DNA of 64,000 bases from an uncultured Anaerolineaceae bacterium. Its GTDB lineage: Bacteria > Chloroflexota > Limnocylindria > Limnocylindrales > CSP1-4. The DNA lies in contig CAZABC010000004.1 in the NCBI GenBank assembly GCA_964483405.1, forward strand, positions 1,329-65,328, in the 5' to 3' direction. Shown here one piece after another: positions 52,155-56,327 of this stretch. Positions within the stretch are counted from its first letter, which is position 1. Each line of letters opens with the position of its first letter. The position numbers were made by a program, and so were the translations under genes. The notes beneath the pieces were generated by a model. It was not told where the DNA came from and searched no databases. It saw only the letters and a program-made list of their open reading frames with translations.

Positions 52155-52508
52155 ATGGTCATCGTTCGGGCCGGCATCATCGTCCCGGCCGCGCTGATCG
52201 TCGTCATGGTGGCGAGCGCGTCGCCTGCGCGCGCCGCGACGTTCGCCGGGCCGGACACGGCGCCGACGGCCGCCGACGAGGTCGCGTGCCCCGTCCTCGA
52301 CGGCCCGCCTGGCGTCGATCCGCCCACCGGCATCCACCGGCCCAGGCCCCTCCCCGACGTCCGACTGCTCCTCGCCTGCCTCGGGGCCATCCTCGTGGCG
52401 GCGGCGATCGCCGGGAACCGCCTCCGGAGCCGCGACGACCCGGAGGCGCCCGGCCATCATCGGCACCGGGTCGACCGTGACCGGCGAGGGGGCATCCACC
52501 TCGGCTAG
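52155..52508 (+). CDS. Small secreted/membrane-anchored hypothetical protein.
   Basis: High GC3 codon usage. Signal-like N-terminus MVIVRAGIIVPAALIVVMVASASPARA and a C-terminal TM segment LLLACLGAILVAAAIAG. The stop sits 9 nt before the helicase GTG. Confidence 0.35.
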   Translation: MVIVRAGIIVPAALIVVMVASASPARAATFAGPDTAPTAADEVACPVLDGPPGVDPPTGIHRPRPLPDVRLLLACLGAILVAAAIAGNRLRSRDDPEAPGHHRHRVDRDRRGGIHLG

Positions 52509-52517
52509 CCTTGGCGG

Positions 52518-55500
52518 GTGCATCGCCACGGGGACGGTCCGCTCGTCGCCTCCGCCACCGACCTCGTCGGCTTCCTCGCCTGCGACCACCTGACCACGCT
52601 GGAGCTCGGCGCGGTCGCCGGCACCTGGCCGCGCCCCCACGAGCGCGAGGATCCCGAGGTCCTCCTGCTCCAGGAGCGAGGCCTCGCCCACGAGCAGGCG
52701 TTCCTCGCCCGGCTCCGTGCCGAGGGCCGGACCGTCGTCGAGATCGCTCGTCCCGAGCCGCGGACGCCGGACGGCTACCGGGCGGCGGAGGCCGAGACCG
52801 TCGCGGCCATGCGCGCCGGTGCGGGGGCCGTCTACCAGGCGACGCTCTTCGACGGGCGGTGGCTCGGGTACGCCGACTTCCTGCTCCGCGTCGAGCGACC
52901 GAGCCCCGCCTTCGGCGCCTGGAGCTACGAGGTCGCCGACACGAAGCTGGCCCGCTCGGTGAAGGCCTCGGCCGTCCTCCAGGTCTGCAGCTACTCCGCG
53001 CGGCTCGCGACGCTCCAGGGCGTCGAGCCCGAGCGGGTCCACGTCGTGACCGGCGATTCGGCCACGACGACGCTCCGGCTGGACGACTTCGGGGCGTACT
53101 TCCGGGCGGCGCGCGCGCGGTTCGAGACGGTCGTCGGCGGCGACCCGGAGCGTGGCATCGCGGCGCGCGACCCGGGGTCCGCCGCGACCTATCCCGATCC
53201 CGTCGACCACTGCCGCGTCTGCGCCTGGTTCCCGGTCTGCATCGACCGCCGTCGGGCCGACGACCACCTCTCGCTCGTCGCCGGGATGACCCGGGCCGCG
53301 ACCGGGGCGCTCGTCGGCGCCGGGGTCGGGACCCTGGCCGAGCTCGGCCGGCTCGACCCCGCCCGTTCGGTCGCGGACCTGGCCGCCCGGACGCTCGGCC
53401 GCCTTCGCGAGCAGGCCCGGATCCAGCTCCGCGGCCGCGAGCTCGGCCGATCGCCCGAGCAGCCGATCCATGAGCGGATCCCGCCGCGGCCCGAGGAGCC
53501 CGGGACCGGTCTCGCCGGCCTGCCCGAGCCATCGCCGCTCGACATCTTCTTCGACATCGAGGCCGACCCGTGGCTCGACGAGACGGGTCGGGAGTACCTC
53601 CTCGGCGTCCTGACGGTCGACGAGGGGGCGCCGGCCTACCGCGCCCTGTGGGGCCACTCGCCGGCGGAGGAGCGGCGGGCGTTCGAGGCGTTCGTCGACC
53701 TGGTCATCGATCGGCTCGCCACGGACCCGACGATGCACGTCTACCACTACGGGGCGTACGAGCGAGCCGCGATCACCCGGCTCATGTCGCGACACTCGAC
53801 CCGCGAGGAGGCCGTCGACCGGATCCTCCGGGGCGGGGTCCTCGTCGACCTCTACACGGCGGTCCGGCAGGGGATCCGGGCATCGGTCGAGTCGTACTCG
53901 CTCAAGCAGGTCGAGCACCTGTTCGGCTTCGTTCGGGCCGGCGGGATCACCCGGGCCGGCTTCTCGGTCGTCGAGTACGAGGCGTACCTCCGCGACGGCG
54001 ACCCGGTCCACCTCGACGCGCTCGCCGCGTACAACCGCGACGACACCCTCGCGACGCTCGGCCTCCGCGACTGGCTCGAGGGCCAGCGACGCGAGGCCAT
54101 CGACGAGGGCTGGGATCTGCCGCGTCCGCTGCCGCGCTCGGGCGATCCCGGCGAGACGGTCGCCGCGCAGGCGGCCGAGACCGCCGCCCGGATCGCGGCG
54201 CTCCTCGCCGGCGTGCCCGAGCCGCCCGACGAGCTCGACGAGGCCGGCCGGGCTCGCCGCCTCCTCGCCGGCCTGCTCGACTACCACCGCCGCGAGGCCA
54301 AGCCCGAGTGGTGGCGCTGGTACGAGCTGCGCGACGGCCGGACCGCCGAGGAGCTCGTCGAGGAGAGCGACGCGATCGGCCTCCTCGCCTGGGAGGCGGA
54401 CGTCGGGACGGAGGCGAAGAGCGTCCTGTCGCGGTTCCGATACCCGCCGCAGGACCACCGGTTCCGACGTGGCGACACGCCGATCGATCCGGCGACCGGG
54501 TCGGGGGCCGGGACGATCGTCGAGATCGACGACATCGCTGGGACGCTCGTCCTGAAGCGGGGCCGGGCGAGGGCCGGCGAGCGGCCGACCGCCCTGATCC
54601 CGGCGACGCCCGTCCCCACGGACGCCCTGCGAGCCGGCCTCGGTCGGCTGGCCGACCATGTCATCGAGCACGGGATCGACCCGCAGGTCGGCGGCGGGGC
54701 CGCCGACGCGTACCGGGCGGCGACCGACCTGCTCGCCGGCCGCCCGCCCCGGATCGCGGCCGCGGTGGATGGCGGCGAGCTGCGCCGCGCCGGCGAGTCG
54801 GCCGCCGACGCCGGGATGCGGCTCGTCGCCGGACTCGACGCGTCGACGCTCGCGATCCAGGGCCCGCCGGGCACCGGCAAGACGTACACCGGCGCCCGGA
54901 TGGTCCTCGCCGCGCTGCGGGCCGGGATGGGACCGGTCGGGGTGACGGCCCAGTCGCACAAGACGATCACCAACTTCCTCGAAGCGCTCGTCGCGGCCTC
55001 CGCGGAGACCGGCGACGAGATCCGGATCCTCCAGCGCTGCGAGACCGGTGACGACGGGAGTCATCTCCCGGGCGTCCGGCTGGCGACGAACGTGGAGATC
55101 GAGGCGGCCGTGGTCGCCGGCACCGTCGACGTCGTCGCCGGGACGGCCTGGCTGCTCTCAAGGCCCGGGTTCGACGGCCGGCTCGGGCTGCTCGTGGTCG
55201 ACGAGGCCGGCCAGCTCGCCCTGGCGACCGTGCTCGCGATGAGCGGCGCGGCCCGGTCGATCCTCCTGCTCGGCGACCCGAACCAGCTCGCCCAGGTGAC
55301 CCAGGGTCTCCATCCGCGGGGCGCGGACGCGTCGGCCCTCGGCCATCTCCTCGGCGAGTCGACGACGCTGCCGCCCGAGCGCGGCCTGTTCCTCGACGAG
55401 ACGCGCCGGATGCACCCGGACGTCAACGCCTACGTCTCGCCGACGTTCTACGCCGGGCGGCTGGGCACGCACGCCTCGACGGCCGGGCAGCGGGTCCTCG

Positions 55501-56033
55501 CGCCGGGGCCGGCCGGGGGGACCGGGATCCGCTGGCACCCGGTCGTCCACGCCCGCAACGAGCAGCGCTCCCGGGAGGAGGCCGAGGCGGTCGCGCGGAT
55601 CGTCGATGCGCTCATCGGCGAGCCCTGGACGGACGCGCTCGGCGTCACGAGGTCCCTCACGATCGACGATCTCCTCGTCGTCGCGCCATACAACGCCCAC
55701 GTCGCCGAGGTCCAGCGGGCGATCGAGGCCAGGCTCGGGCCGGTCGCCCACGACCGCGTCGGGACGGTCGACAAGTTCCAGGGCCGGGAGGGCGCGGTCG
55801 CGATCTACACCATGGCGGCCTCGTCGGCCGAGGATGCGCCGCGCGGCCTCGACTTCCTCTACGACCGGCACCGCCTCAATGTCGCCGTCTCGCGGGCGCG
55901 GGCGGTCGCGATCGTCGTCGCCAGCCCGGCGCTCCTCCGCGTGCGAGCCCGCACACCGGAGCAGATGCGCCTCGCGAACGCGCTCGCCCGACTCGTGGAG
56001 GTGGCCGAGCTGCAGGCGCAGGCGCGCCGCTGA
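52518..56033 (+). CDS. RecB-like (Cas4-type Fe-S) nuclease fused to an SF1 Upf1-like helicase; Dna2/Nhi-like nuclease-helicase.
   Basis: N-terminal PD-(D/E)xK nuclease region with the four-Cys pattern C...CRVCAWFPVC. C-terminal helicase motifs GPPGTGKT (I), VVDEAGQ (II), LLGDPNQL, VDKFQGRE and NVAVSRAR (VI). Confidence 0.85.
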   Translation: MHRHGDGPLVASATDLVGFLACDHLTTLELGAVAGTWPRPHEREDPEVLLLQERGLAHEQAFLARLRAEGRTVVEIARPEPRTPDGYRAAEAETVAAMRAGAGAVYQATLFDGRWLGYADFLLRVERPSPAFGAWSYEVADTKLARSVKASAVLQVCSYSARLATLQGVEPERVHVVTGDSATTTLRLDDFGAYFRAARARFETVVGGDPERGIAARDPGSAATYPDPVDHCRVCAWFPVCIDRRRADDHLSLVAGMTRAATGALVGAGVGTLAELGRLDPARSVADLAARTLGRLREQARIQLRGRELGRSPEQPIHERIPPRPEEPGTGLAGLPEPSPLDIFFDIEADPWLDETGREYLLGVLTVDEGAPAYRALWGHSPAEERRAFEAFVDLVIDRLATDPTMHVYHYGAYERAAITRLMSRHSTREEAVDRILRGGVLVDLYTAVRQGIRASVESYSLKQVEHLFGFVRAGGITRAGFSVVEYEAYLRDGDPVHLDALAAYNRDDTLATLGLRDWLEGQRREAIDEGWDLPRPLPRSGDPGETVAAQAAETAARIAALLAGVPEPPDELDEAGRARRLLAGLLDYHRREAKPEWWRWYELRDGRTAEELVEESDAIGLLAWEADVGTEAKSVLSRFRYPPQDHRFRRGDTPIDPATGSGAGTIVEIDDIAGTLVLKRGRARAGERPTALIPATPVPTDALRAGLGRLADHVIEHGIDPQVGGGAADAYRAATDLLAGRPPRIAAAVDGGELRRAGESAADAGMRLVAGLDASTLAIQGPPGTGKTYTGARMVLAALRAGMGPVGVTAQSHKTITNFLEALVAASAETGDEIRILQRCETGDDGSHLPGVRLATNVEIEAAVVAGTVDVVAGTAWLLSRPGFDGRLGLLVVDEAGQLALATVLAMSGAARSILLLGDPNQLAQVTQGLHPRGADASALGHLLGESTTLPPERGLFLDETRRMHPDVNAYVSPTFYAGRLGTHASTAGQRVLAPGPAGGTGIRWHPVVHARNEQRSREEAEAVARIVDALIGEPWTDALGVTRSLTIDDLLVVAPYNAHVAEVQRAIEARLGPVAHDRVGTVDKFQGREGAVAIYTMAASSAEDAPRGLDFLYDRHRLNVAVSRARAVAIVVASPALLRVRARTPEQMRLANALARLVEVAELQAQARR

Positions 56034-56099
56034 CCGGCCATCGGGCGGGTCGGCGCCGTCGGCGGCCGGGGATGATCGGGGCCCCGCGGGCCGCGGGGT

Positions 56100-56327
56100 C
56101 TAGAGGGCGCGGCGGAGGACGATCAGCCCGCCGACCAGGAGCAACGCCGCGAGCGCGACGATGGCGATCGGCGGCAGCCCAGATGCCGCCGAGGCGTCGT
56201 TCACGAGGGCCGACGCCATCGCCACGAGGTTGCCGCCGGCGTCGACACCGGTCCCGCCGCCGGCCCCGCCGCCGGTCCCGCCGACGACGTCCGTCGCCGT
56301 GCCGACGCCTTGCCCGTACTCGACCAT
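56100..56327 (-). CDS. Small Gly-rich protein with a C-terminal hydrophobic anchor (hypothetical).
   Basis: 75 aa, strongly GC3-biased codons. GGTGGGAGGGTG N-terminal region, C-terminal LPPIAIVALAALLLVGGLIVLRRAL. Confidence 0.35.
   Translation of the reverse strand: MVEYGQGVGTATDVVGGTGGGAGGGTGVDAGGNLVAMASALVNDASAASGLPPIAIVALAALLLVGGLIVLRRAL

What the first reader, a model, noticed from the sequence alone, without database searches (positions are those of the whole stretch)
52155..56327. Dna2/Nhi-like nuclease-helicase fusion (1171 aa) flanked by two tiny membrane-anchored proteins
One polypeptide joins a Cas4/AddB-style RecB nuclease and a complete SF1B Upf1/Dna2-type helicase. The nuclease has a single N-terminal Cys plus CxxCx5C (CRVCAWFPVC). 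The helicase motifs are GPPGTGKT, DEAGQ, GDPNQL, QGRE and VAVSRAR. An uncharacterised linker of about 350 aa separates them. This architecture is shared by eukaryotic Dna2 and by the staphylococcal anti-phage nuclease-helicase Nhi, and the actinobacterial versions are functionally undescribed as far as I know. It is bracketed by two small GC3-biased ORFs encoding signal/TM-anchored peptides (52155-52508 and 56100-56327), so a three-component module is conceivable. Whether this is repair or immunity is open.
Basis: partly seen in the sequence, partly recalled or inferred. Interest (0 to 1): 0.6.

Follow-up and report, generated by a model that had tools for sequence, protein, structure and literature searches.

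The report
Dna2-like helicase with two nucleases
This is a real, stand-alone gene for a Dna2-like DNA helicase fused to two nuclease domains; its family is widespread and catalogued but I found no experimental study of it, it appears wired to a DNA-damage-type promoter switch, and the two tiny neighbouring genes are not its partners.

Summary

1. The "uncharacterised linker" is mostly structured. It holds a DEDDy 3'-5' exonuclease-like domain (Pfam PF13482, aa 343-520), then a helical stalk and a beta-barrel like those of Upf1 and Dna2.
2. The organism is a Chloroflexota (Limnocylindria) bacterium, not an actinobacterium.
3. The two small ORFs are not partners. The upstream one lies in a ~360-bp segment that a 97%-identical relative lacks. 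The downstream one occurs only in close relatives, and a homolog sits elsewhere with no helicase nearby.

The protein is a full member of NCBI's TM0106 family (TIGR03491) fused to an SF1B helicase. This architecture was catalogued in 2014, and I found no experimental study. Dna2 is the only solved structure that aligns collinearly along its whole length. Nhi is only an analogy.

The main new observation is regulatory. The gene has its own promoter with a -10 box 6 nt before the start codon, which implies a leaderless mRNA. Just upstream is a conserved palindrome placed like the PafBC "-26 element". An Arthrobacter homolog has an exact PafBC motif. This suggests induction by ssDNA or DNA damage.

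Whether the role is repair or immunity stays open. Chromosomal synteny is stable here, but plasmid homologs and other genes behind the same operator sit in defence contexts.

The parts
52476..52511 (+). Promoter/operator. It comprises a degenerate copy of the conserved palindrome GTGACAG-N5-CTGTCAC (here GTGACCGGCGAGGGGGCAT, 52477-52495), a 10-nt spacer, and the -10 hexamer TAGCCT (52506-52511). The -10 lies 6 nt before the GTG start, which implies a leaderless mRNA.
   Evidence: a TANNNT box 5-8 nt before the start codon in 39/80 orthologous loci. PWM score 24.7, the only site scoring >=12 in the 64-kb window.: ~50 sites in front of orthologs; architecture in 49/79 upstream regions against a null rate of 0.0026; no sigma-70 -35/-10 promoter in the region.
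52518..56033 (+). Nuclease-exonuclease-helicase gene: 1171 aa, a TM0106-family module fused to an SF1B helicase.
52542..53267 (+). Cas4/RecB-type PD-(D/E)xK nuclease domain (aa ~9-250) with the four-cysteine 'iron-staple' pattern. Key residues: C22; D120; D141-T-K143; Q155...Y159; C232-xx-C235-x5-C241.
53544..54107 (+). DEDDy-type 3'-5' exonuclease-like domain (RNase H fold, PF13482), aa 343-530. Candidate active-site residues are D346, E348, E415, Y505 and D509.
54153..54587 (+). Helical stalk (aa 546-607) and beta-barrel (aa ~620-690), resembling the accessory domains of Upf1-like helicases and Dna2.
   Evidence: Secondary structure of confident models. IGHMBP2 and Upf1 align over ~640-680 columns of the full-length model at TMt ~0.6. 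No Pfam family matches this stretch.
54825..56033 (+). SF1B (Upf1/Dna2-like) helicase core with Walker A GPPGTGKT (K788), Walker B DEAGQ, GDPNQL, QGRE and VAVSRAR.
   Evidence: AAA_11, AAA_12 and AAA_30. PDB profile hits: IGHMBP2 6e-27, Upf1 1e-23, Sen1 3e-21, Dna2 9e-17.

Best explanation
The gene encodes a stand-alone, single-polypeptide DNA-end and flap processing motor of the Dna2/Bad kind, with one extra domain.

Domain order: an Fe-S Cas4/RecB-type nuclease, then a DEDDy 3'-5' exonuclease-like domain, then a stalk and beta-barrel, then an SF1B helicase.

Inferred mechanism, from what is known of SF1B motors, Dna2 (PDB 5EAN) and Bad:
- The motor loads on single-stranded DNA and moves 5'->3' toward a duplex junction.
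- The strand it tracks is fed to the N-terminal nuclease, which sits 'ahead' of the motor and cuts it.
- The DEDDy domain trims 3' ends, either the displaced strand or blocked or mismatched termini.
- One protein could therefore degrade or clean both strands at a DNA end, gap or flap.

Expression: the gene has its own promoter that lacks a -35 box, with a leaderless start. Just upstream of the -10 box is a palindromic operator with GAC/GTC half-sites, placed like the PafBC -26 element. I infer control by a WYL-type (PafBC/DriD-like) regulator that responds to ssDNA, so the enzyme would be induced when broken or single-stranded DNA accumulates.

Role in this Chloroflexota chromosome: the gene is vertically inherited in a stable housekeeping neighbourhood and has no partner gene. 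I judge genome maintenance most likely, meaning damage-induced resection or clean-up of DNA ends. The same activity could also destroy linear foreign DNA, as RecBCD does.

Shown: the gene, its three enzyme-like modules, intact motifs, folds, lack of conserved partners, and the conserved operator. Inferred: every enzymatic activity, helicase polarity, Fe-S binding, the regulator and inducer, and the biological role.
For: Identity and folds:
- TIGR03491 at 266 bits over the full model; PF13482; AAA_11/AAA_12.
- Confident models: pLDDT 89.4 with pTM 0.82, and pLDDT 89.5 with pTM 0.85.
- Dna2 (5EAN) is the only solved structure aligned over the whole length: E 7e-25, 1211 columns.
- Cas4, Exo5 and MGME1 match the N-terminal domain. 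PolB exonuclease domains and MrfB match the middle domain.
- All candidate catalytic residues are invariant.

Mechanistic precedent:
- Bad is an Fe-S ssDNA endonuclease with 5'-3' translocase and helicase activity, and its nuclease sits ahead of the motor (PMC7430649).
- MrfB is an active exonuclease. I place it in PF13482 from Majorek's COG3359+TPR description; no Pfam scan of MrfB was run (PMC11194089; PMC3985635).

Stand-alone status: no recurrent partner in 83 loci.

Promoter:
- The -26/-10 architecture is present upstream of 49/79 orthologs, against a null rate of 0.0026: 48/62 Chloroflexota-labelled loci, and also Acidimicrobiales, Dormibacterota and Vicinamibacterales.
- 49 of 66 metagenome copies of the motif that have a downstream ORF precede orthologs.
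- The Arthrobacter homolog has TGTCGG-N10-TAGATT. This equals the published PafBC consensus tGTCgg(N10)tA(N3)T (PMC8635444).
- The DriD operator shares the GACnG...CTGTC half-sites.

Housekeeping context:
- Synteny DUF4397 - aminotransferase - DJC28 - gene - MFS - M20 - ADI is kept among relatives of 51-97% identity.
- The window is core chromosome: DnaG, MurJ, COX1.
- GC3 matches the neighbours. No phage copies were found.
Against: - No activity was measured for any member of this family.
- Sequence profiles of the two nuclease domains do not reach any solved Cas4 or DEDD protein. Those assignments rest on family models, motifs and folds.
- The Exo II acidic residue is Glu (E415), not the usual Asp.
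- Global TM-score to Dna2 is only 0.36-0.40, so the domain packing differs.
- The window's own operator copy is the most degenerate of the set: PWM score 24.7 against 36-47, with GGC in place of GTC in its proximal half.
- No regulator was identified. WYL regulators also repress defence systems (BrxR and CapW; PMC9186387).
- No recA, uvrA or lexA promoter was recovered with the motif, although the search pattern was biased toward orthologous promoters. The other genes that did turn up are a HEC-01A candidate defence ATPase (PADLOC E 4e-159) and an ARPP-1 protein.
- Homologs of 36-42% identity lie on 58 plasmids, next to AbiD, DrmD-like, TmtA-like, HEPN and toxin-antitoxin genes.
Confidence: 0.5

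Rival explanations
1. It is a single-gene anti-phage or anti-plasmid defence enzyme, Nhi-like in function. It would be kept off or low by a WYL-type regulator and switched on when infection produces ssDNA or DNA ends. The helicase would then drive the two nucleases along invading linear or replicating DNA.
For: - 58 plasmids carry full-length homologs.
- Plasmid neighbours are defence genes: AbiD (E 2e-62) directly upstream in Qipengyuania; a DrmD-like helicase (E 3e-103) plus a TmtA-like/type IV REase-like protein directly upstream in Ensifer; HEPN, HipA, VapBC, SNF2 and HNH elsewhere; and a divergent WYL-domain gene in Sphingomonas.
- Wadjet-like genes follow the Arthrobacter copy.
- The same operator precedes a HEC-01A candidate defence ATPase and an ARPP-1 protein.
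- Bad sits next to a type III-like methyltransferase.
- WYL regulators such as BrxR control defence loci.
Against: - In the window's lineage the gene occupies one stable chromosomal position among metabolic genes, across relatives of 51-97% identity. There are no defence or mobile-element neighbours, which is unusual for defence genes.
- No PADLOC defence model matches beyond the helicase core.
- There are no phage-encoded copies.
- In Actinobacteria the matching promoter type belongs to the PafBC regulon, which the literature describes as mainly DNA repair.
Confidence: 0.33
2. It is part of a three-component module with the two flanking membrane-anchored small proteins. They might tether the enzyme to the membrane or regulate it.
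For: - Both small ORFs have coding-like GC3.
- The upstream ORF ends 10 bp before the main start, and recurs at the same place in one other strain at 83% identity.
- The downstream ORF is conserved as a protein in L001-L004.
Against: - The upstream ORF lies in a 360-bp segment absent from the 97%-identical relative L001. It is absent from all 83 loci, and only 2 clusters exist in 5.8 billion proteins.
- The downstream ORF is convergent and found only in relatives of >=67% identity. It is absent where the MFS gene follows within 39-167 bp. Only 4 clusters exist, and one homolog lies in a locus with no helicase.
- The main gene has its own promoter, and the upstream ORF's stop codon lies inside its -10 box.
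Confidence: 0.03
3. It acts on RNA or on RNA-DNA hybrids, because the helicase core most resembles the Upf1, IGHMBP2 and Sen1 RNA helicases. Possible roles are R-loop removal or RNA decay, or flap and primer processing during replication as eukaryotic Dna2 does.
For: - The best PDB sequence and fold matches of the helicase core are IGHMBP2, Upf1, Senataxin and Sen1.
- PADLOC's best helicase-level hit is MkoA of Mokosh.
- DEDD domains include many RNases.
Against: - The two nuclease domains are closest to DNA enzymes: Cas4, Exo5, MGME1, PolB proofreading domains, ExoI and MrfB.
- Full-length collinearity is with Dna2 only.
- The nearest characterised bacterial analogue, Bad, is a DNA enzyme.
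- The promoter type points to a DNA-damage or ssDNA signal.
Confidence: 0.1

Closest known systems
TM0106 family RecB-like putative nuclease (NCBIfam TIGR03491; COG2251; family F.13 of Majorek et al. 2014, PMC3985635)
   Same: Full-length match to the family model at 266 bits against a cutoff of 97.45. Same Cas4-like domain plus PF13482 module. [quoted passage not shown] RefSeq names the plasmid homologs this way.
   Different: Nothing differs structurally: this is the family it belongs to. The family has only a name and no tested function.
Bad, the bacterial DNA2-like helicase-nuclease of Geobacillus stearothermophilus (PMC7430649)
   Same: Same order and similar size: an N-terminal Fe-S 'iron-staple' RecB nuclease, a conserved central region, and a C-terminal SF1B helicase. 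Bad is 1245 aa with nuclease D150 and Walker A K815; this protein is 1171 aa with D141 and K788. Bad is the only biochemically characterised bacterial protein of this layout: an ssDNA endonuclease and 5'-3' helicase that extrudes DNA loops.
   Different: The Bad authors found no detectable fold in its central domain, whereas here PF13482 scores E 1.8e-27. They mention a 'second class' in Mycobacteria and Rhodococcus, which may be this family. Bad lies next to a type III-like methyltransferase, and this gene does not. I could not obtain the Bad sequence, so homology was not tested.
Eukaryotic Dna2 (PDB 5EAN/5EAW/5EAX)
   Same: It is the only solved structure that aligns collinearly with the whole protein: nuclease, then barrel/stalk, then SF1B helicase (E 7e-25, 1211 columns). 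Both have an Fe-S Cas4/RecB-type nuclease N-terminal to the motor.
   Different: Dna2 has no DEDD domain. Global TM-score is only 0.36-0.40. Sequence similarity is detectable only in the helicase (E 9e-17). Dna2 works with RPA, RecQ-family helicases and FEN1, and no such partners are evident here.
Nhi (SERP2475), the staphylococcal anti-phage nuclease-helicase (bioRxiv 10.1101/776245)
   Same: One polypeptide with an N-terminal nuclease and an SF1 helicase. Both activities are needed for Nhi to work. It is a possible functional analogy if the defence reading is right.
   Different: Nhi is ~72 kDa. Its nuclease resembles HsdR (3H1T) and its helicase resembles Dda (3UPU). It has no Fe-S cysteine pattern and no DEDD domain. 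It occurs in <1% of genomes, often on plasmids, and 72% of homologs have defence neighbours. PADLOC returned no Nhi hit for this protein.
MrfAB mitomycin-C repair pair of Bacillus subtilis (MrfB structure 8UN9; PMC11194089)
   Different: MrfB is a DEDDh enzyme with a TPR tail, and its helicase is a separate SF2 protein. Here the pentad is D-E-E-Y-D, and the helicase is a fused SF1B. No sequence-level match was found.
PafBC / DriD WYL-domain DNA-damage activators and their promoters (PMC8635444, PMC9186387)
   Same: The promoter has a -10 box but no -35 box. Its upstream element contains a G-N-C/GTC core exactly 10 nt from the -10 box. The Arthrobacter homolog matches tGTCgg(N10)tA(N3)T exactly. 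The palindrome's half-sites, GACAG/CTGTC, resemble those of the DriD operator.
   Different: The Chloroflexota element is a 19-bp palindrome, whereas the PafBC motif is non-palindromic. The middle base of GTC varies (T, A or G). No regulator gene was identified and inducibility was not tested.

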